Source: Mobula hypostoma | Taxonomy: Eukaryota | Direction: 5' to 3' | NCBI RefSeq assembly: GCF_963921235.1 | Contig: NC_086097.1 | Location: forward strand, 167,836,001-167,900,000 | Length of the DNA stretch: 64,000 nt | Shown here: positions 1,251-63,574 of the stretch, piece by piece | Layout of the letters: every line of letters begins with the position of its first letter | Numbering within the stretch: position 1 is the stretch's first letter | Made by a program: the position numbers and the translations under genes | Notes under the pieces: model-generated | Databases searched by the model: none | The model's input: the letters and a program-made list of their open reading frames with translations, nothing else | What the model was told of the DNA's origin: nothing

Positions 1251-1882
1251 ATCCTGTATATTGAGATATGGTTAGGTAATATCTGTAAGATGACAATCCT
1301 CTAGGAAAAGGGATCATAGATGGTGAATGTTCTTCATGCAGTTTGAGCAACTTGAACTTAAATAGAGCCATCTATGCAGCATAACTTAGGGTTAACCGGT
1401 TAACCATAGGGATATTTGAGAAGATGACGACAAGAATTAAATATGGAAAGCTTGTAAACAAGTACTACAAAATATTCAAAAATTGAAAAACAAATTTCCA
1501 CAAGTACAATGATTTGTCTGTGGCTAATTGAAGAGTTTAACAATAGAATCGGGTTTAATATCACTGGCATATGCCATGAAATTTTGTTTTATGCAATAGC
1601 AAATGACCAAAAAAATGATGATGAAGAGGAATGATTATAAAGGTAAATAGTAAGGTGAGTAAATGAAATAAATTTGTGTCCCTAAGATAGAGATCAAAAA
1701 TAAAGATCATGGTTGTTTTAATGTGTTTCCCTACACTTACCATATTGTTTGTTTCCTTCATTATCCAGAAATCTGTTAATATCATTGTAGAAGGCAATCA
1801 ATAAATGATCCTCCACATCTGATTAGGGTAGGGAATTTCCAATAATTCTCCACCTTTGAAAGAAGGAACTTCTCTTAATTCT

Positions 1883-1965
1883 CAAATAAGAGGAAGTCTG
1901 CAGATGCTGGAAATCTCAAGCAACACACACAAAATGCTGAGTTCCTCCAGCATTTTGTGTGTGTT
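1883..1965. mobile_element. 83-bp Penelope-derived mini-insertion with an internal hairpin
   Basis: Flanked by a perfect 15-bp direct repeat ACTTCTCTTAATTCT (1868-1882 and 1966-1980). Contains an 18-bp inverted repeat of the Penelope 3' tail motif. Confidence 0.8.
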
Positions 1966-2109
1966 ACTTCTCTTAATTCTACTGCTATCCCTTAATTGAA
2001 AACTGTGATTTCAATTCTAGTTTTTCAGACGGGCAAAGCATCCTTCCCCTTCTACCCTGTGGAGCCCTGTAACAACAGTATTTACTGAATAGTAGCACTC
2101 AGTTTTTTA

Positions 2110-2878
2110 AAAAATGCCCTGTACATCTTCTTTGAACATGCCCTGGTCACATTAAATGCATGTTCTTTAGTATTAGACATTTAAACCCTGGGAAAAAGAT
2201 GCTGTCAATTTCCTCTATCTATACCCCTCAGTCTTATAAACTTCTATCAGATCTCCCCTCAGCCTCCGTTATACTTGGAAAAAACAACCCAGGTTTGTCC
2301 AGTCTCTGCTTATAGCACATCCTTTCTAATCCAGGTAGCATCCTTGTAAACTCTTTTACACCCTTTCTAGAGCCTCCACATCCTACCTATAATGTGATGA
2401 TCAGAACTGAATACAATACCCTAGGTGCAGTCTAACCAGAGTTCAATAAAACTGCTGTGTAAATTTCTGACTTTTGAAATCTGTGTCTAAATTAATAAAG
2501 ACAAGCGTGCCATACATCTTCTTACCCACCCCGTCGAATTGTGCAGCCACTTTCGGGGAGCAATGAACTTGGACCCCAAGGTCTCTCTGTCCATCACATT
2601 TTTAAGATTCCTGCTATTTATTGTGTACTGTCCATTTACATTTGATCTGTCAAAGTGCAATACCTCACATTTGGCTGGATTAAGCTTCATCTGCCATTCT
2701 ACCGCTCATATCCGTAACTGATCTGTATCCTACTGTATCCTTTGGCAATCTTCTACACGATCAACAATACAACCAGTTCTTGTACCGTTTACGAGCTCAA
2801 TAATCTTCTTGTCCACATTTTTATCCAAGTCACTATAAAAATCACAAACAGCCGACGATTCAGGACAGATGCTTGTGG
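2110..2878 (-). mobile_element. CR1 LINE 3' fragment
   Basis: Minus-strand MKLNPAKCEVLHF and downstream CR1 motifs; degenerate. Confidence 0.8.
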
Positions 2879-2881
2879 GTA

Positions 2882-3267
2882 TAGTATTGTGCAAAGGTCA
2901 TAGGCACATGTAAAAAAAATGTAAAGTGAAAATGCTTTCAAAAATAATGAAGTGAAAAGTTTCTAAATATAAAAATAATTCCAATAAAGTGAAGTAAAAA
3001 GAACTAAATCAAATCTGTATTTGGTGTGACCATCCTTTGCCTTTAAAATTGCATCAGTACTCTTGGGTATACTGCCATGCAGGTTTATAAGAGAAGAGGC
3101 TGGTAGATTGTTCCATGCATCTTGGAGAACTTGCCATAGTCCTGAAGACTATGGCAGCCTCGCTTGCTGCTGTGTCTCTCGGTACACACAGACAGTCTCG
3201 ATGATGAGATCTGCCTCTGTGGAAGCATATAAAAATATAGGATGCCTAAGACTTTTGCACAGTACTG
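2882..3267. mobile_element. Non-autonomous Tc1-like element (MITE), copy 1
   Basis: TIRs (C/T)AGTATTGTGCAAAGGTCATAGGCA ... TGCCTAAGACTTTTGCACAGTACTG; TA on the left; same family as 6519-6941. Confidence 0.85.
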
Positions 3268-3349
3268 CAGGTGAGCAGAAGAGAAGGGTGAGAAGGATTT
3301 CAAAATGTGGAGTGGGAAAAGAGGAGGAGGAAAGAGAAGAAATAACTGG

Positions 3350-3635
3350 CTGTTTTTCTCACCTCCCTATCATCACTCTCTGGTGCCCCTCCTCCTTCCC
3401 TTTCTCCCATGGTCTACTGCCCTCTCCTATCAGATTTGTTCTTCAGCCCTTTATTTCTTCCACCTATCACCTCCCAGCTTCTTACTTCATCCCCTCCCCA
3501 ACCTTCTTATTTTGGCTTGTTCCCCCTTCCTTTCCAGGCCTGATGATGGGACTTGGCCCAAACCGATGACTGTTTATTCCCCTCCAAAGATTCTGCCTGA
3601 TTTTACAGAATTCCTTCAGTGTTTTCTGCGTGTTA
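3350..3635 (+). mobile_element. Penelope-derived SINE-like 3' fragment with a degenerate hammerhead motif
   Basis: Pyrimidine-rich body, then CCTGATGATGGGACTTGGCCCAAACCGATGACTG and a tail homologous to 18540-18643. Confidence 0.7.
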
Positions 3636-5019
3636 GACCATAAAACCTGAAGACATAAGAGCAGAAATAGGTCACTTGGCCCACCGGGTCTGCTCCGCCA
3701 TTCCATCATGACTGATTTAACCCCATTTTCCTTCCCTCTCCCTATAACTTTTGACACCCCGATTAATCAAGAATCTCCACCTGAAAAATACCCACAGCTG
3801 GATGGTTGAAGGATGATGTTGACCCGTGACCCAAAAGCCTGCTCATGTGCTGTATCAATCTATGGAAAGTGTACTGTAAGTGACAGGACTCTTGAGAAGC
3901 TGTGACATGCAGAGGGATTTTGGGGTACAATTCCACTGCTCTCTCAAAGAGGTAACACGGGTGGCTAGGGTGATAAAGAAGGCATGATCAGGGCAGGTGT
4001 GTAAAAGTTGGAAAGTCATGTTGCAGTTGTGTAGAACTTTGGTTGAGCCCCAATTGAAGTACTACATGCAGTTGTGGTCACGACATTACAAAAAAGATGT
4101 AGACGCTTTGGAAATGGTGCAGAGGAACCGAAATGTTGCCTGGATTGAGTGTGTTACCTGTAAAAGAGCAGACTGGACAGACTGTTAAGAGGTTTTCTGT
4201 GGAGTTGTACCATCTAAGCCATGTTCTACTTTTCTATTCCTCCTCCAATAATGGAGAACCTGGTATTTTCACACGTACTATAACCTGTCAGCCCACCCAC
4301 TTAACCAGCCTATATCCCTTCACAGATTGTGCCATTCTCACTGCTTGTCTTCCCACTTGACTTTGCAGTGTCGGCAAATTTGGCCACCGTACTGTATATT
4401 TAGTTACTTTCTCTAAGTCACTGTTATTAATTGTAAGTGATTGAGGCCACAACACCAATTCCTGTGGCTCCCCATCTTGCCAACCTGGAGAAGAACTATG
4501 TATAAAAATTCCCAGTATTAGATGGTCAGTCCTTCAGCAATGCTGACATATAGCTCCAGATACCATCGGCATCTCCCTTGTGAGGTAACCCTATTAAATG
4601 CCTCCTGGAAATCTAAATACATTGCATCTACTGATTCTCCAATATCTACCCTGCTCATGACATCCTCAGAGCACTCTGATTATTGAAGCAAACATTGTTT
4701 CTCTTCTGTTAAACCATGCCTTTCTGTTTTATGATTTTCTAAATATCCTCCTAACACGTATTCAGTGACCATTTCTCCATTTGAAGTTCACAGCAGGGTA
4801 AATCCCTGGGTTCAGGTGGCTCTGGTGTTGTGATTGTTAGCTAGCTGCTGGAAGTTTTTATACAATGGAGCTAGGAGATATTCACTAGGGCTGGCACTTC
4901 CAGTAAAGACAACAACAGTATTAGCATGTCGGGTTAAAACCCTTACATTTCTAGTTAGTGATCAAACTAGATTCACTTGCATAGAAGACATGAAAGGGCA
5001 GGTGTCCTTTTATTCATTT

Positions 5020-6518: not shown

Positions 6519-6941
6519 CAGTATTGTGCAAAAATCTTAGATGCAATCTTACAAAAAAAATCCTGTAAAGCAAAGATACTTTCAAAAATAATGAAATGAA
6601 AAGATTTTTAAATATGAGAAAATTTACTATAAAGAGCAGTAAACAGTAAAAAAAAATAAATCCAGTCAATATTTGGTGTGACCACCCTTTGCTTTTAAAA
6701 CTGCATCAATTCTTTTATAAAACTGTTGCGCAGTTTTATAAGAAAACGGGCTGGTAGGTTGTTCTAAACACCTTGAAGAATTTGCCACACTTCCAACTTT
6801 GACTCTCTCGCTTACTTCTGACTGTCCAGGTAATCTCAGGTAGCCTCGATGATGTTAATATCAGAGCTCCGTGGAGCCAATACCATCTGAAAACATGTAT
6901 TTTAAAAAATGTAGGGTGCCTAAGATTTTTACACAGTACTG
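6519..6941. mobile_element. Non-autonomous Tc1-like element (MITE), copy 2, inserted in a Rex1-type 3' tail
   Basis: TA|CAGTATTGTGCAAAAATCTTAG ... CCTAAGATTTTTACACAGTACTG|TA. Flanks rejoin as gacatata-tgtactttgataataaa, the tail of the element at about 6190-6985. Confidence 0.9.
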
Positions 6942-33534: not shown

Positions 33535-33632
33535 GAATTTTTTGATCATGCAAAAGCACTTTGGGATGACGAGGGTGTGAAGGCATGCTTTGAAAGATCA
33601 AATGAGTACCAGCTCATCGACTGTGCACAATA
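33535..33632 (+). CDS. GNAL: Internal coding exon (98 bp) of a Gs-family G-protein alpha subunit, most likely G(olf) alpha
   Basis: Pyrimidine tract and acceptor tttttcctatttgcag|GAA, donor CAATA|gtaagt. Translates as [32 protein letters not shown](Y). Length and phase match the 98-bp exon shared by GNAS and GNAL. FFD and [10 protein letters not shown] match GNAL (GNAS has FYE and WEDEGVRACY). Isolation by long introns also fits GNAL. Not present in the ORF track. Confidence 0.9.
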
Positions 33633-35134
33633 GTAAGTATCACTCACCACTAAACTATGGGATTGTTGCAGCATTTCTAGCTCATTCAACTTCTTCCAAA
33701 AAGAGAAGTTACTTTGTCCTGAAATGGAAAATGAGACTAAACTGAATGGGATTTTACAATGTCCTCTGCTCAGTGAGAAGACACTAATATTTCTGAAGCG
33801 TCAACCAGAGTTGATCTGTAAACTGGTTGAATCGAGGTAGTGCTGTGAGGCAACAAAATGGCGAAGAACCAGAAACATTTTGGTTAGATTTAGCTTGGAA
33901 GTCAGAGTTCTGTTGCTTCTGCATTTGATTGTTCAGTTCTTGGCTCAGTGGGATATCTGGAGTGGCCCAGCTCTCCAGTGGAGACAAGAGGACCATCAGG
34001 ATGGTTCTGACTTAAGCGGGTTAAACTTATCAGAGTTGATGTTGAGTTAAATTTCTTCAGAGATTTCTTTGCTGTCCCTCGTAATCCACAGAGTCAACAG
34101 CTCTCCAAGTGACTGTAATTCATTGCCTGCTCTGAAATCTTATGCAATATCTTTAATCTGGTCTTTCGCACAAACTGGGGAGCACAACAGCATTGTTAGT
34201 CATGCTGTTGCCTCAGCACCAGGGAGCTGGATTCAAACCTGAATTATCTGTACGTAATTTGTACATTCTCTCTGTAACAGCATGGGTTGCCTCCATGTGC
34301 TCTGATTTCTTACATGTTGGTAGGTTATTTGGCCACTGTATGTTGTTCCTAGTGTGTAGGTAAGTGTAGAATCTGGAGGAATTGTGAAAATGTGAGGAGT
34401 AAAAAAGGATTACTGTAGGATTGGTGCCAATGATTGGTTGTTAGAGTGCAGCTGATGGGGTTGAATGACTTGGTTCCTTGCTTCTTCTCTGTATGACTAA
34501 ATCTAACCATCTCTTATGCTTTGAGCCAAGTTTTATGGTGAGCATCTGCAGAGAAAAATTGTTTATTTTGTCTCTCGCTCTCTTGGATGAAATTCTCAAG
34601 TGGTAAAATCCAAAGTGAGTTTGATAACTAATTCCATGGCTAACTGACATTCTTAGGGAATGTCTCACTGACTTTAAAACAAATATATGCATCGCAATGC
34701 AGATGTCATGGATCAGCTGGTTTTAATTACACCTTCAGAAACGTACTTTGACTTCATTGGTAAGACTGGATTTTTAAATTCTCTGCTGCTTTGGTGAGGG
34801 TGGGGTTGCTTTGCATTGGGTTCTAGCAGAGGATGTGCAGTGTGACATATGTTGTGGTGTCCCAGTGTATACAGAGATCGTCCTGTGTAAACTGAGTGAG
34901 AATGACATATTGTTCTCCAGTGTGTAGGTGCTTCATTGTATGGTGCTAGTTGCAGGGTTGATTAGGCACGTTGCCACAGGAGGCCTTGGTCAGCTTTACT
35001 TTTGAGTAGGTATCTCTGGGTTTCTTATGAGTTAAGTAGTTTAAAATATTTTCTAAACAATTGGTATTATTTTGTTAATTTAATAACCAACAACTTGTTT
35101 ATATGGTTGTTTATACTTGTCTACATTGTCCCCT

Positions 35135-36517
35135 GGGTTTTTCATCTCTCTGGAACAATCCATTGTCCCCTTGGTTTTCAAGGCGGCATCCATTATTCCA
35201 GTGCCAAAGAAGGTGACAGTTACCTGCCCAAGTGACTATTGGCTGGTAGCATCAGCATCAGCCATTATGAAATGCTTTGAGTTGCTGCTCATGGAGCACA
35301 TTAAAGCCTTTCTCCCAGCTACACTGGACCCTTTCCAGTTCGCTAATCGTTCAAATTGATCCACAGATGATGCAATAGCCTCTGTCCTCTCCCACCTGGA
35401 AAATGGGGTCCATATGCCATACTGCTATTTACAGACTTCAGTTCGGCATTCAACACTATGATACCTCAGAAACTGATGGAGAAACTGTCCTCGCTGGGTC
35501 TCAACACCTCCCTCTGCAATTGGATACTGGACTTCTTACTGGTAAGGCTACGTTCAGTCTTTGTGGGCTGCAACATCTCTAGTCCCGTCACACTGAACCC
35601 TGGAGACCCTCAAGGCTGTGTGCTCAGCCCACTGCTGACGCATGATTGCGTCGCAGGATCCAACTCAAACCGTGTCATCAAGTTAGCGGATAACACAGCA
35701 GTGGTTGGCCTTATCAAGACCAATGACAAGATGGAGTATAGAGAGGAAGTGGAGCGGCTGGTGGGCTGGTGTGAGAAGAATAATAAATCTGAACATGGAG
35801 AAGACAAAGGAGATCATTGTGGACTTCAGGAAGTGGAGACAAACCATCCCTCTCTCCAAATACATATAGAGAGAATTAAATGCACCAACCCTGGGGCTTT
35901 AGATCTCGGATGACCTCACCTGGTCCCCTAATATCACCTCCCTGAACGAGAAGTCACAGCAGCACATCCACTTTCTAAGGAGACAGAGACAAGCAAGGCT
36001 CCAACTGCACCACCCCCTCACATCTTAACTGTATTTTATAGGAGCACCATTGAGAGCATCCTGACAAGTTGCATCTCCATCTGGTTCAGAAGTCCCTACA
36101 AAGGACTGTGAGAACAGCTGAGAGTATCATAGGGATCTCCCTACCATCCATTGCGGACATTTAGCAGGAGTGCTGCGTGAACAGAGCCTTTGGTATTATT
36201 AAGGATCCCACCCATCCATCCAGCATCCTCTTTGACTTTCTACCATCAGGTGGGAGATTATGATGAATGAAAACAAGAACGAGAAACAGTTTCTTCCCAC
36301 AGGCCATTAGGCTTCTGTACTCCCTTCCGCATATTATTCAGTTAATCTGTTCCGTACCTTACAATATTTAATATTCATGCACTTTAGTTTATTATTTATG
36401 TGTGACTCATCTGTAGATTTTATCCTTACCTTCATAAGTTATCGTATGTTACGTGCTTTTCACCCTGGTTTGAAGAAACATTGTCACGTTTCTACATACA
36501 TTATATAGTTTTATATG
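35135..36517 (+). mobile_element. Rex1/Babar LINE, 5'-truncated, RT region with frameshifts; its tail resumes at 38123-38165 after the Tc1 insertion
   Basis: FKAASIIPVPKK...IMKCFE...[23 protein letters not shown]...[10 protein letters not shown]...KLADNT; (CTTGA)n-type tail at about 38145-38165. Confidence 0.88.
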
Positions 36518-36519
36518 TA

Positions 36520-38122
36520 CAATGGCATGCAAAAGTTTGGGCACCCCTGGTCAAAGTTTCTGTTGCTGTGAATAGCTAAGCGAGTAAAAGAAGAACTGAT
36601 TTCCAAAAGGCATAAGGTTAAAGATGATACACTTCTTTAATATTTTAAGCAAGAAAACTTTTTTAGTTCCATCTTTTACAGTTTCAAAATAACAAAAAAG
36701 GAAAAGGGCCTGAAGCAAAAGTTTGGGCACCCTGCATGGCAGTACTTAGTAACACCCCCTTTGGCAAGTATCACAGCTTATAAACGCTTTCTGTAGCCAG
36801 CTAAGAGGCTTTCAATTCTTGTTTGGGGGATTTTCACCCATTCTTCCTTGCAAAAGACTTCTAGTTCTGTGAGATTCTTGAGCCGTCTTGCATACACTGC
36901 TCTTTTGAGGTCTATCCACAGATTCTCGATGATGTTTAGGTCAGGGGACTGTGAGGGCCATGGCAAAACCTTCAGCTTGCACCTCTTGAAGTAGTCCATT
37001 GTGGATGTTGAGGTGTGTTTAGGATCATTATCCTGTTGTAGAAGCCATCCTCTTTTCATCTTCGGCTTTTTTACAGACGGTGTGATGTTTGCTCCCAGAA
37101 TTTGCTGGTATTTAATTGAACTCATTCTTCCCTCTACCAGTGAAATGTTCACCGTGCCACTGGCTGCAACACAAGCCCAAAGCATGATCGATCCACCCCC
37201 GTGTGCTTAACAGTTGGAGAGGGGTTCTTTTCATGAAATTCTGCACCCTTTTTTCTCCAAACATACCTTTGCTCATTGCAGTCAAAAAGTTCTATTTTAA
37301 CTTCATCAGTCCACAGGGTTTGTTTAGATGTTCCTTTGAACCTTTTGAATAGAACTTTTTGGCCACAATGAGCAAAGGTACGTTTGGAGAAAAAAGGGTG
37401 CGGAATTTCATGAAAAGAACCCCTCTCCAACTGTTAAGCACGGGGGTGGATCAATCATGCTTTGGGCCTGTGTTGCAGCCAGTGGCATGGGGAAAATTTA
37501 CTGGTAGAGTGAAAAATGAATTCAATTAAATACCAGCAAATTCTGGGAGCAAACATCACACCGTCTGTAAAAAAGCTGAAGATGAAAAGAGGATGGCTTC
37601 TGCAACAGGATAATGACCCTAAACACACTTCAAAATCCACAATGGGCTACCTCAAGAGGCACAAGCTGAAGGTTTTGCCATGGCCCTCACAGTCCCCTGA
37701 CCTGAACATCATCGAGAATCTGTGGATAGACCTCAAAAGAGCAGTGCATGCAAGATGGCCCAAGAATCTCGCAGAACTAGAAACCTTTTGCAAGGAAGAC
37801 TAGGTGAAAATTCCCCCAAACAAGAATTGAAGGACTCTCAGCTGGCTACAGAAAGTGTCTACAAGCTGTGATACTTGCCAAAGGGGGTGTTACTAAGTAC
37901 TGACCATGCAGGGTGCCCAAACTTTTGCTTTGGGCCCTTTTCCTTTTTTGTTATTTTGAAACTGTAAAAGATGGAAATAAAAAAGTTTTCTTGCTTAAAA
38001 TATTAAAGAAATGTGTCATCTTTAACTTTATGCCTTTTGGAAATCAGTTCGTCTTTTACTCACTTAGCTATTCACAGTAACAGAAATTTTGACCGGGGTG
38101 CCCAAACTTTTGCATGCCATTG
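36520..38122. mobile_element. Palindromic (foldback) non-autonomous Tc1/DD34E element of IR/DR type
   Basis: TA|CAATGGCATGCAAAAGTTTGGGCACCC ... GGGTGCCCAAACTTTTGCATGCCATTG|TA; inner direct repeats CAAAAGTTTGGGCACCC. Both arms encode the same transposase C-terminal half pointing outward (QQD-34 aa-E spacing counted in the left arm). Confidence 0.95.
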
Positions 38123-38305
38123 TATATAGTTAAACATCAACAAACTTCACTTGACTCAACTTGACGTTACAAAGTGCTGGCCACACTCAGCTGGTCTGTG
38201 AAGGGAGAAGCCACAATTCCTTTTCATTTTGGTAGTGCCGTTATAAGGAGGATGTGGAGGCTTTGGAGGCATTGAGTTACTTTTCTTTTTTGGCACAACC
38301 TTGTG

Positions 38306-51186: not shown

Positions 51187-52708
51187 CAGATGGCCCCCGT
51201 TTTCCGAGCGTTCGCTTTACGACACCTCGCTGTTACAAAAGACCTCCATTAGTTACCTGTTTTCGCTAACAGAAGGTGTTTTCACTGTTATGAAAAAAAG
51301 CAGTGCGCGCCCCGAGCAGCCAAACTCCTCCCCGGAACTGCATTCTGGCCAGCATTGTTTAAACACATGCTTTATCTCGATTTATTTTGTGTATCCGTTA
51401 GCAAGCTGAGTTCTAAGGTATCGGAAAAGCCTAAAAGAGCTTGTAAGGGTGTTACACTTAGCGTAAATCTAGACATAATTAAGCGTTTCGATTGTGGTGA
51501 ACGAAGTAAGGATATTGTCCGCGCGTTAAACTTGCCTGCGTCCACCATTCGCACTATTTATACGCAGAGAGAAAGAATTTTGAAAGCTGCCGAAGTTACT
51601 GTTGGTTCTGCTCGTAGCAAAGTGGTCTCTCTTAGTCAGCATCCAATAATGGATAAAATGGGAAGTCTATTGCTTGAGTGGATTGATGGGTGTACAAAGC
51701 GTGGTGTTCCGTTAAGTTTTCTTATACTTCAGGAGAAATCGGTTGGTCTTTTTAATAAGCTGAAACAGAAAGCACTGGACGATGGTGATGAAAGTGTTGC
51801 GAAAGTGGAATTTAAAGGTAGTCATGGGTGGTTTGATCGGTTTTTGAGGTGAGGGCCGCTTCATAGTTTAAGCAGTGGTCCCCAACCTCTGGGCCGCCAA
51901 CCAATACATTGCCACAAAGAGTGCAGCGGTAGTCGGAACGCACCCAGCACATCTTTAATTTAAAAAACCGAAATAAACAAGCTAATTAATTAGGTAATCA
52001 CAAAATAATCTGCAGATGCTGTGATCAAAGCAACACTTTCAGTATGCTGGATGAACTCAGCAGGTCAGGCAGAATCAGTTAGAAACGATGAGTCGACGTT
52101 TCGGGCCGGAACCCTTTGTCAGGACTGAAGAATGAAAGATGGGGAAGGACTTGAAGAATGCTTGTAGCTTCAGTTGAAAGACCAGTAATTAGTTAATTAA
52201 TTAGTCAATTTAAAAAATAATTAATTAGGTGCCGCCCGGCACATAAATGTCGGCCCAGATCAGAGGTGATTGCTGATTGCGTCAGGTGGTTATTCGTATA
52301 AGCAAATGTTTACTACCCTGTACATACATTATTTCTACTTGATATAGGCTGTGTATTTTTATGTGTTATTTGGGATGATTTGGCAGATTCACAGCTTAAA
52401 GGTTACTGGAGAGAGTGTTTCTGCCGAGAGCGCTTCCGCGAGATTTTCGCTGCGCTAGACAGTGCTGCAGAAAAGTATTTCTACTTTAGATAGGCTGTGT
52501 ATTTATCATATCGTTCCTGCTATATGTTACTGTTATTTTAGGTTTTATGTGTTATTTGGCATGATTTTGTAGGTTATTTTTTGGGTCTGGGAACGCTCAA
52601 AAAATTTTCCCATATTAATAAATGGTAATTGTTTATTCACTTTACGACATTCCGGCTTACGAACCATTTCATAGTAACGCTCTACCTTCAGATAGCAGGG
52701 GAAACCTG
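51187..52708 (+). mobile_element. Internally deleted Tigger/pogo element nested in the hAT
   Basis: TA on both sides (51185-51186, 52709-52710); imperfect TIRs CAGATGGCCCCCG / GCAGGGGAAACCTG. ORF 51355-51852 encodes CENP-B-type HTH domains ending EFKGSHGWFDRF; no DDE domain seen. Confidence 0.88.
51873..52285 (+). mobile_element. hAT-like left-end fragment inside the Tigger element, itself carrying a minus-strand Penelope-derived insert (about 51995-52190)
   Basis: Starts CAGTGGTCCCCAACC (compare 62799). Insert lies between repeated taattaattag motifs and holds a hammerhead motif at 52090-52127. Confidence 0.65.
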
Positions 52709-58385: not shown

Positions 58386-59087
58386 CTGTAAAAACTGCAC
58401 ACGGATTACATCTGTAAAAACTGCACACAATTACATCTATAAAAACTGCACACAATTACATCTGTAAAAACTGCACATGGATTACATCTGTAAAAACTGC
58501 ACACGGATTACATCTATAAAAACTGCACACGGATTACATCTGTAAAAACTGCACACAATTACATCTATAAAAACTGCACACAATTACATCTGTAAAAACT
58601 GCACACGGATTACATCTGTAAAAACTGCACACAATTACATCTGTAAAAACTGCACACGGATTACATCTATAAAAACTGCACACGGATTACATCTATAAAA
58701 ACTGTACACGATTACATCTGTAAAAACTGCACACGGATTACATCTGTAAAAACTGCACACGGATTACATCTATAAAAACTGTACACGATTACATCTGTAA
58801 AAACTGCACACAGATTACATCTGTAAAAACTGTACACGGATTACATCTGTAAAAACTGCACACAGATTACATCTATAAAAACTGCACACAATTACATCTA
58901 TAAAAACTGCACACAGATTACATCTGTAAAAACTGCACACAATTACATCTATAAAAACTGCACACAATTACATCTATAAAAACTGCACACGGATTACATC
59001 TGTAAAAACTGCACACAATTACATCTATAAAAACTGCACATGGATTACATCTGTAAAAACTGCACACAGGTTACATCTATAAAAACT
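58386..59087. repeat. 26-bp minisatellite, about 27 copies
   Basis: Unit AAAAACTGCACAC(G/A)(G/A)TTACATCT(G/A)T-like, head to tail, with 25-bp variants and no spacers. Confidence 0.97.
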
Positions 59088-59194
59088 AGTGAGGACCTTT
59101 GTTGCGTCTATAAAGACCGGTGAGGACCTTTGATGTATCTATAAAGATTTGCGAGGACCTTTGCTGCTTCTATAAAGACTAGTGAGGACCTTTG
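59076..59194. repeat. 31-bp tandem repeat, about 4 copies
   Basis: GAGGACCTTT recurs at 59091, 59122, 59153 and 59184. Confidence 0.93.
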
Positions 59195-62798: not shown

Positions 62799-63574
62799 TA
62801 GCGGTCCCCAACCACCGGGCTGCGGACCGGTACCAGGCTGCAAAGCATGTGCTACCGGGCCACGAGGAAATGATACGAGTCAACTGCACCTTTCCTCATT
62901 CCCTGTCACACACTGTTGAACTTGAACATAGGGTTGCCAACTGTCCCGTATTTGCCGGGACATCCCATATATTGGGACCACCCTTGTCCCGTATTTTCCC
63001 CGCTAAGGTAGAGCGTTCCTATGAAACCGTAAGCGGAAATGGCGTAAAACGAAGAAGGAATTACCATTAATTTATATGGGAAAATTTTTTGAGCATTCCC
63101 AGACCCGAAAAATAACCTACCAAATCATACCAAATAACACAAAACCTAAAATAACACTAACATATAGTAAAAGCAGGAATGATATGATAAATACACAGCC
63201 TATATAAAATAGAAATAATGTATTACAGTGTAGTTTCACATAACAGAATCAGGAAGATTAAACCAAAACCGATTTGTAGAAAAAAATCGGCACGTACACA
63301 CATGCGCATGTCATGTATGCTCACGTCATGCACGCGCACAGAGCTTCGTGGTCATGGTAGTCTTTCTCAGGGTAAACACAAGTGTCCCATATTTGACTGC
63401 TACTTTTGTCCCTTATTTGGGTGTGAGAAAGTTGGCAACCCTAACTGTAAAAGACATTCTGAGGTGAGTTTAACCCAACTTGAACACCCCCCCCCCCACC
63501 GCCCGTCGGCCGGTCCACAAGAATATTGTCAATATTAAACCAGTCCGCGGTGCAAAAGTGGTTGGGGATCCCTG
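62799..63574. mobile_element. Composite non-autonomous hAT element (MITE)
   Basis: TIRs (T)AGCGGTCCCCAACC / GGTTGGGGATCCCTG; perfect 8-bp TSD TGATATCC (62791-62798 and 63575-63582). Inner TIR pair TAGGGTTGCCAACT / AGTTGGCAACCCTA (62929-63443). Confidence 0.92.

What the first reader, a model, noticed from the sequence alone, without database searches (positions are those of the whole stretch)
36520..38122. Tc1 element made of two right halves: a 1.6-kb palindrome in the GNAL intron
Seen: arm 36520-37296 is the reverse complement of arm 37348-38122 with scattered substitutions, around a spacer of about 50 bp. Each arm is the 3' half of a DD34E transposase plus the IR/DR end. The N-terminal DNA-binding region is missing. 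It is flanked by TA/TA and its length (1603 bp) is about that of an autonomous Tc1. Inference: it transposed as a unit in trans. It would form a hairpin of about 775 bp in the host pre-mRNA 2.9 kb downstream of the exon, a possible ADAR or endo-siRNA substrate that could silence its own family.
Basis: partly seen in the sequence, partly recalled or inferred. Interest (0 to 1): 0.7.

Follow-up and report, generated by a model that had tools for sequence, protein, structure and literature searches.

The report
Mobile Tc1 palindrome of two tails
This is a dead jumping gene made of two mirror-image tail halves, sitting in what is likely an intron of a G-protein gene; its central seam also occurs in other copies in three organisms' sequence data, so it is likely one of roughly a thousand copies moved by a relative's enzyme, and any silencing role is untested.

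Summary
The palindrome is real: arms of 777 and 775 bp, 726 of 779 columns identical, TA on both sides, two right-hand IR/DR ends. One correction: the 51-bp spacer is the left half's own transposase running on, with the first catalytic D, so there is a single fold-back seam at 37347/37348. No genome was held. Assembled contigs from three coded organisms cross that seam with letters the window lacks, and one is a separate copy with a deleted right arm. A rough simulation fits most copies being palindromes, of the order of a thousand. So this is an old, high-copy, non-autonomous Tc1 family, not a local accident or an assembly error. The kind is known from insect mariners (Rpmar49 and Rpmar17, 3'-3'), and this scan has noted similar elements in two other genomes. 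Less usual: a near full-length palindrome in the IR/DR class, apparently outnumbering its parent, with derived letters shared by both arms that hint at arm-to-arm copying. Hairpin RNA, editing and silencing are untested.

The parts
33535..33632 (+). Host exon, G(olf)-alpha (GNAL)-like, AG...GT bounded
   Evidence: sequence; best hit G(olf) alpha 8el8_A residues 132-163, E 1.5e-16
35130..36517 (+). Decayed 3' part and tail of a LINE into which the element inserted (start approximate)
   Evidence: RVT_1 E 1.1e-6 on 35371-35910 (just under the curated cut-off); one search shows the tail is itself multi-copy; continuation of the tail after 38124 is my reading, not tested
36518..36519 (.). Left TA (target-site duplication)
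36520..37296 (-). Left arm: a 3' half of the Tc1 element
   Evidence: alignment
36520..36739 (-). Right-type IR/DR end; 18-nt direct repeat at 36529-36546 and 36715-36732
   Evidence: blastn self-hits
36742..37347 (-). Broken transposase, about codons 132-340 of P0004, with D153, D244, E279; stop at codon 328, frameshift near 37201
37297..37347 (-). 51-bp loop: transposase codons about 132-156 with a 22-nt deletion near 37318-37320 and a 1-nt loss
   Evidence: against P0004; loose ends at 37320/37325 carry the missing letters
37347..37348 (.). Fold-back seam where the strand switches; shared with other copies
   Evidence: tables 3 and 5
37348..38122 (+). Right arm: second 3' half, transposase codons 157-340 (no first D; stops at 211 and 308, frameshifts)
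37904..38122 (+). Right-type IR/DR end; direct repeat at 37911-37928 and 38096-38113
38123..38124 (.). Right TA (target-site duplication)

Best explanation
This is a decayed 1.6-kb palindrome of two 3' halves of a DD34E IR/DR Tc1 transposon whose central seam is shared by other copies, and it is likely one copy of a high-copy non-autonomous family that the parent's transposase moved in trans. Origin (inferred, about 0.55): during repair of an excision gap, copying ran in from the right end to about codon 132, switched strand at codon 157 and copied back out, giving two identical right ends at almost native spacing; a deletion between two inverted neighbours is the alternative (about 0.35). Spread (inferred): two intact IR/DR ends 1.6 kb apart are a good substrate, whereas shortened IR/DR elements move poorly. 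A later 22-nt deletion in the loop likely defines the majority sub-form. This copy landed at a TA in a LINE tail, then each arm decayed by about 3%. If the intron is transcribed it would fold into a 775-bp hairpin; the most likely fate in a vertebrate is ADAR editing with no specific function (from general knowledge, untested).
For: Shown: structure, TA/TA, IR/DR ends; parent-type intact transposase P0004, matched by at least one arm at 174 of 181 codons. Seam in other copies: in X1, X5 and X9 (organisms A, B, C) contigs with G at 37365, where the window has A, reach 31 letters either side and so cross the seam; an opposite-strand joint 37130->37364 (X9, depth 58, shorter side 40) must run left across the seam because only 32 letters lie to its right, so it is a second palindrome with a deleted right arm. 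146, 164 and 223 contigs leave the element end at 36518 into unrelated flanks (agreement 0.35-0.37). Loose ends at the 22-nt deletion are balanced (41 and 38 in X1, 32 and 30 in X5), about 3-5% of estimated contigs per position, with none printed at the seam. The simulation gives 17-29% and from_end at most 23 for ordinary elements only, and 2-5% with none at the seam for 75% palindromes with the deletion plus 25% without. At 16 of 30 printed left-arm sites the window's letter is private and the right arm has the majority letter, so the arms decayed independently. 10 of 22 printed in-element joints end within 37276-37290 or its mirror, 7-21 bp from the loop; 0 of 20,000 uniform trials reached this. 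Precedent: PMC4678618 section 13; size constraint: PMC5224488 passages.
Against: No genome was held, so no second full copy with its own TA flanks was seen. Depth bins alone do not separate the models: ordinary elements with a 28-bp island gave 0.72/0.51/0.33/0.17 against the observed 0.79/0.44/0.32/0.11, and the tool states that summed depth is no copy number. The simulation uses raw unitigs, blastn and stand-in letters, not the tool's mapper. hides 1,596 loose-end rows, 110 joint rows and 76 variant rows. No run holds half the words of the locus, so this insertion itself and its empty site were not seen in reads. The mechanism of origin was not tested.
Confidence: 0.85

Rival explanations
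1. Local rearrangement: an ordinary Tc1 inserted here and its 5' half was later replaced by an inverted copy of its 3' half, or two neighbours were fused by a deletion at this site.
For: TA/TA is not diagnostic, since every Tc1 end abuts a TA. Both arms share a letter at 37094 that under 0.2% of the family depth has. The empty site was not seen.
Against: The same seam is in other contigs of three organisms, with other letters and with a different internal deletion; a one-off event here cannot give that.
Confidence: 0.05
2. The seam is shared but by a small subfamily only; most family members are ordinary or internally deleted elements.
For: Depth bins can be mimicked by ordinary elements; tables are truncated; the 37262-37298 bin (0.65-0.79) is above the all-palindrome simulation (about 0.5).
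Against: With 10% palindromes the simulation gives 11-23% loose ends at the deletion site, against about 3-5% observed. An intact frame needs one more base near 37339, and table 4 lists no such insertion.
Confidence: 0.2
3. The family, or this copy, acts or acted as a Mu-killer-like silencer: read-through transcription makes long dsRNA whose small RNAs target the 3' half of the parent's mRNA and ended the family's activity.
For: The central 846 nt fold at -702.6 kcal/mol (z -53, 0 of 20 shuffles); the arms cover codons 157-340 of the parent; any copy in a transcription unit gives a hairpin in either orientation; Mu killer is a precedent (PMC3440606 abstract).
Against: No small-RNA or editing data were obtained. 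The element appears to have multiplied greatly, which a strong silencer would hinder. This copy shows only neutral decay. Endo-siRNA from long hairpins is limited in vertebrates (recalled).
Confidence: 0.15
4. Assembly artefact (fold-back chimera).
Against: The arms differ at 47 sites and 6 gap columns with separate private changes; the seam is in independent short-read assemblies of three organisms.
Confidence: 0.01

Closest known systems
Rpmar49 and Rpmar17 of Rhodnius prolixus (PMC4678618; section 13 read in full; passages)
   Same: 5' part replaced by an inverted 3' part, giving very long inverted repeats with transposase homology; Rpmar49 spread in trans from one progenitor (13 copies); Rpmar17 copies show further deletions centred on the breakpoint, as the joints here do.
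   Different: Those are simple-IR DD34D mariners mostly of 900-970 bp, with a 221-bp repeat in Rpmar49. This is a DD34E IR/DR Tc1, 97% palindromic at 1.6 kb, in a vertebrate, apparently with far more copies.
Rearranged mariner MITEs Dromar7, 11, 28, 36 of Drosophila (PMC4161770; passages)
   Same: One half replaced by the inverted other half, long TIRs, amplified in trans; the authors call the origin elusive.
   Different: There always 5'-5' and under 1 kb; here 3'-3' and of full length.
Sleeping Beauty / Tdr1 IR/DR group (PMC5224488; section 21 and passages; structure 5cr4)
   Same: IR/DR ends of about 220 bp with outer and inner direct repeats; DD34E; P0004 matches SB100X at E 3e-80.
   Different: A separate family from SB; SB's enhancer sits in the left IR, which this element lacks; no MITE-like derivatives were found for Tdr1.
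Mu killer of maize (PMC3440606; abstract only)
   Same: Inverted duplication of part of a transposase gene with two copies of one end, read through from a flanking gene.
   Different: Mu killer is one locus with demonstrated silencing; this is a mobile multi-copy family with no silencing shown.
C. elegans Tc6 (recalled; one search found no description of its structure)
   Same: Recalled as a 1.6-kb palindromic Tc1-superfamily element with arms of about 765 bp; Tc6 is named among edited transposons in PMC4317174 (passages).
   Different: Not recalled as being made of recognisable transposase halves; not compared here.

Membership tests
Tc1 (DD34E) | DDE catalytic domain with 34 residues between second D and E | tested here: met
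   D153, D244, E279 in P0004, all present in the left half
Tc1 (DD34E) | TA target duplication | tested here: inconclusive
   TA on both sides; empty site not seen
IR/DR subgroup | Long IR (about 200-250 bp) with outer and inner direct repeats | tested here: met
   18-nt repeat 186 bp apart in each end; definition in PMC5224488
Autonomous Tc1 | Intact ORF with paired-like DNA-binding domain, left and right ends | tested here: not met
   residues 1-131 absent, stops and frameshifts, two right ends
Long-TIR rearranged non-autonomous Tc1/mariner (Rpmar49 type) | One half replaced by the inverted other half | tested here: met
Long-TIR rearranged non-autonomous Tc1/mariner (Rpmar49 type) | Several copies share one breakpoint | tested here: met
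   seam-crossing contigs with other letters in three organisms, and one with a different deletion
Long-TIR rearranged non-autonomous Tc1/mariner (Rpmar49 type) | Whole copies seen at independent sites with own flanks | tested here: inconclusive
   146-223 contigs show family ends on unrelated flanks, but short contigs cannot tie a flank to the seam; no genome held
MITE in the strict sense | Short (under about 1 kb) and without coding remnants | tested here: not met
   1603 bp, mostly transposase remnant
Mu-killer-type silencer | Inverted duplication of transposase sequence inside a host transcription unit | tested here: inconclusive
   duplication shown; host exon 2.9 kb upstream, next exon not found, transcription of this copy not shown
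Mu-killer-type silencer | Small RNAs from the hairpin and silencing of the autonomous element | not testable with these tools
   only assembled contigs were offered

The most novel reading that the evidence does not exclude
A full-length right-right palindrome became the dominant form of an IR/DR Tc1 family in several related cartilaginous fishes, and its two arms evolve in concert: new mutations are copied from one arm to the other in active copies. Both arms here share two derived letters (37223, about 30% in organisms A and B but 0.4% in C, where the seam is also common; 37094, under 0.2% everywhere) and agree at all six non-CpG variable sites printed. Such a family would be a natural test of IR/DR end and spacing rules, and a genome-wide source of transposase dsRNA that may have ended its own parent.
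Probability: 0.3. Interest if true: 0.68.

Novelty: new member of a known kind. Interest (0 to 1): 0.45.

Why it matters
It shows how an IR/DR transposon, a class reported not to spawn short parasites, can still be parasitised: by a derivative that keeps native length and doubles one end. If it does outnumber the parent, it bears on which end the transposase prefers, a question studied in Mos1, Mboumar-9 and Sleeping Beauty (PMC4505599 section 25), and P0004 offers an intact enzyme to test it with. Around a thousand 775-bp hairpins would be a large set of potential dsRNA and editing substrates and of unstable palindromes in these genomes. The GNAL copy itself looks like an ordinary dead member.

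Tried and rejected
Whole-genome counting: no genome held. Exact-pattern scans: seam pattern in metagenome contigs, 0 hits; arm pattern in metagenome, viral and prokaryote genome contigs, 0 hits each; uninformative for a fish repeat. Searches for predicted peptides that cross the seam: 2 hits and 5 hits, none crossing it. No RNA holder listed; this says nothing about expression. Run X15 is only guessed to be RNA: it has 32 A>G or T>C places of 90, against 65 of 257 in the other three runs (Fisher p 0.076; the same sites recur across runs, so the test is loose); with no matched DNA run this is not counted as evidence of editing. My first argument from depth bins alone was weakened by simulation and is not relied on. 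No second copy of the LINE tail in the window to rebuild the empty site. No further G-alpha exon by motif scans. The end motif as a text search found 0 papers. Paper searches listed no description of this family; Repbase and Dfam could not be searched, so it may already be a library entry. PMC3828361 (passages) and PMC3573991 (passages; 0 occurrences of 'gene conversion') added little. (bacterial promoter scan on 2 bases) was irrelevant. No supplements were read.

Full report
Observation. The sequence at 36520-38122 is as described. The arms (777 and 775 nt) align over 779 columns with 726 identities, 47 substitutions (39 transitions) and 6 gap columns, evenly spread; the spacer is 51 bp; TA stands on both sides. 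Each end has an 18-nt direct repeat near the tip and again about 186 bp inside, just past the transposase stop, so both are right-hand IR/DR ends. The central 846 nt fold at -702.6 kcal/mol, with 0 of 20 shuffles as low, which follows from the palindrome and adds no functional evidence.

Host context. The exon 33535-33632 is best matched by G(olf) alpha (30 of 32 residues, 60.7 bits; G(s) alpha 57.4) and ends 2,888 bp upstream. The next exon was not found by short-motif scans, so the intron is inferred. The element sits in the tail of a decayed LINE (RVT_1, E 1.1e-6, just under the curated cut-off). An earlier scan note calls this genome a devil ray; I did not test that. Skates and rays are reported to be rich in Tc1/mariner DNA (PMC12361510, passages).

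Parent. A protein search with the left half (1,040 hits, 120 listed) found an intact 340-aa transposase from an unnamed assembly, P0004, 91% identical to the decayed half. At least one arm matches it at 174 of 181 codons compared, so it is the parent type or very near it. Its triad is D153-D244-E279, DD34E, with a Sleeping Beauty-type HTH and a match to SB100X at E 3e-80. Against P0004 the left half runs from about codon 132 to 340 and the right half from 157 to 340. The spacer is therefore the left half's own continuation, with D153, a 22-nt deletion and a 1-nt loss. There is one strand-switch seam, at 37347/37348. Both halves have stops and frameshifts.

Family or local accident. No genome was held and pattern scans of microbial and viral collections were blank. 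The run search listed 24 runs, 20 holding part of the stretch, none half of it, all as assembled contigs. I laid 4 of the 24 (X1 organism A, X5 B, X9 C, X15 A, guessed RNA) on 36300-37395: left flank, left arm, spacer and 48 bases of the right arm. Three results bear on the seam. First, in X1, X5 and X9, contigs with G at 37365 (window A) reach 31 letters to either side, so they cross the seam; ordinary elements alone gave at most 23 in simulation. Second, an opposite-strand joint 37130->37364 in X9 (depth 58) has 40 letters on its shorter side while only 32 lie to the right on the stretch, so it runs left across the seam: another palindromic copy with most of its right arm deleted. A similar joint in X5 (36718->37357, side 38) is ambiguous. 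Third, loose ends carrying the missing 22 nt are few and balanced (41 before 37320 and 38 behind 37325 in X1; 32 and 30 in X5; 65 behind in X9), and none is printed at the seam (24 rows printed, 1,596 hidden). In addition 146, 164 and 223 contigs leave the outer end into unrelated flanks.

How many. Summed depth over the loop and seam bins is 0.36-0.44 and 0.27-0.32 of arm depth in X1, X5 and X9, but the tool warns that this is no copy number, and my simulation showed that these bins alone can be mimicked by ordinary elements. The loose-end pattern separates the models better. Ordinary elements only: 17-29% of contigs per position loose at the deletion site, and at least as many loose ends at the seam as before 37320 whenever the latter are frequent. 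Ten per cent palindromes: 11-23%. Seventy-five per cent palindromes with the deletion plus 25% without: 2-5%, balanced, none at the seam. Observed: about 3-5%, under an assumed mean contig length of 40-55. The simulation overcounts each arm 14-18 times; with an assumed single-copy depth of 10-30, X1's arm depth of about 700,000 gives roughly 1,300-5,000 arms. I read this as of the order of a thousand palindromes, probably the majority form, with wide error: raw unitigs, blastn and stand-in letters are not the real pipeline.

History written in the arms. Of 40 variant rows printed (76 hidden), 30 lie in the left arm. At 16 the window's letter is private and the right arm has the majority letter; at 4, all CpG, the arms differ at a polymorphic site; at 1 both differ from the majority and from each other; at 9 they agree. 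So the arms were near identical at insertion and have since decayed separately, about 3% each. The 9 shared rows include 2 CpG sites and 6 non-CpG events (36655-36656 counted once). Two of these are derived against P0004: 37223, at about 30% in A and B but 0.4% in C, where the seam is as common, and 37094, under 0.2% in all four runs. If the seam is older than these changes, they had to be copied from one arm to the other. One site (37094) could be a parallel change; the other could reflect subfamily structure that short contigs cannot phase. This is a lead from one copy. Also, 10 of the 22 distinct in-element joints printed (27 rows merged to 23, one in the flank dropped; 151 rows hidden) end 7-21 bp from the loop, which 0 of 20,000 uniform trials matched: arms tend to be lost up to the tip, as expected of an unstable palindrome and as described for Rpmar17. 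The window's own mismatches at 37280-37282 may sharpen this cluster by a few bases.

Mechanism. Shown: structure, parent type, shared seam, decay. Inferred: origin by a strand switch during gap repair (about 0.55) or by deletion between two inverted neighbours, as proposed for Rpmar49 (about 0.35); these data cannot separate them. Inferred: spread in trans, helped by native spacing of two IR/DR ends, since a Sleeping Beauty donor reduced to its ends moved at about 10% (PMC5224488, passages) and two identical preferred ends raise transposition in Mos1 26-fold (PMC4505599, section 25). That the right end suffices is notable because SB's enhancer lies in the left IR; whether this family has such an enhancer is unknown. 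Untested: RNA hairpin, editing, silencing. Palindromic DNA transposons are common editing sites in C. elegans (PMC4317174, passages), so editing is plausible, but nothing here shows it.

Comparison and verdict. It belongs with the long-TIR rearranged non-autonomous Tc1/mariner elements (PMC4678618, section 13; PMC4161770, passages). It resembles Mu killer in build only (PMC3440606, abstract). This scan has noted right-right and left-left Tc1 palindromes in two other genomes, unchecked by me, so the kind recurs. My ten paper searches listed no account of this family, but repeat libraries were not searchable. New member of a known kind; interest 0.45, for its scale, its IR/DR class and the testable hint of concerted arms.

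Noticed in passing
P0004, P0007, P0009: The parent-type transposase is 84% identical to one from the swamp eel Monopterus albus, and the next cluster has carp and frog members. If the host is a ray, the parent family likely crossed between lineages; no DNA-level test was made.
   Followed up: partly
window about 2884-3267 and 6519-6941: Two short, internally deleted elements of a different Tc1-like family with similar ends; the second appears to sit at a TA in a LINE tail, as the palindrome does. Read by eye.
   Followed up: no
window 58386-59194: Minisatellite of a 26-bp unit, 27 copies, 91% matches, followed directly by about 4 copies of a 31-bp unit.
   Followed up: no
window 52465-52661 and 63028-63228: Two inverted copies of an unidentified repeat about 10 kb apart, 86-87% alike.
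   Followed up: no
window 36520-36524 and 38118-38122: Both tips begin CAA, where I recall CAG for most Tc1 ends; whether this is the family letter or a shared derived change was not among the rows printed.
   Followed up: no
window 33535-33632: Only one G-alpha exon was found in 64 kb by my motif scans, which suggests very long flanking introns.
   Followed up: partly
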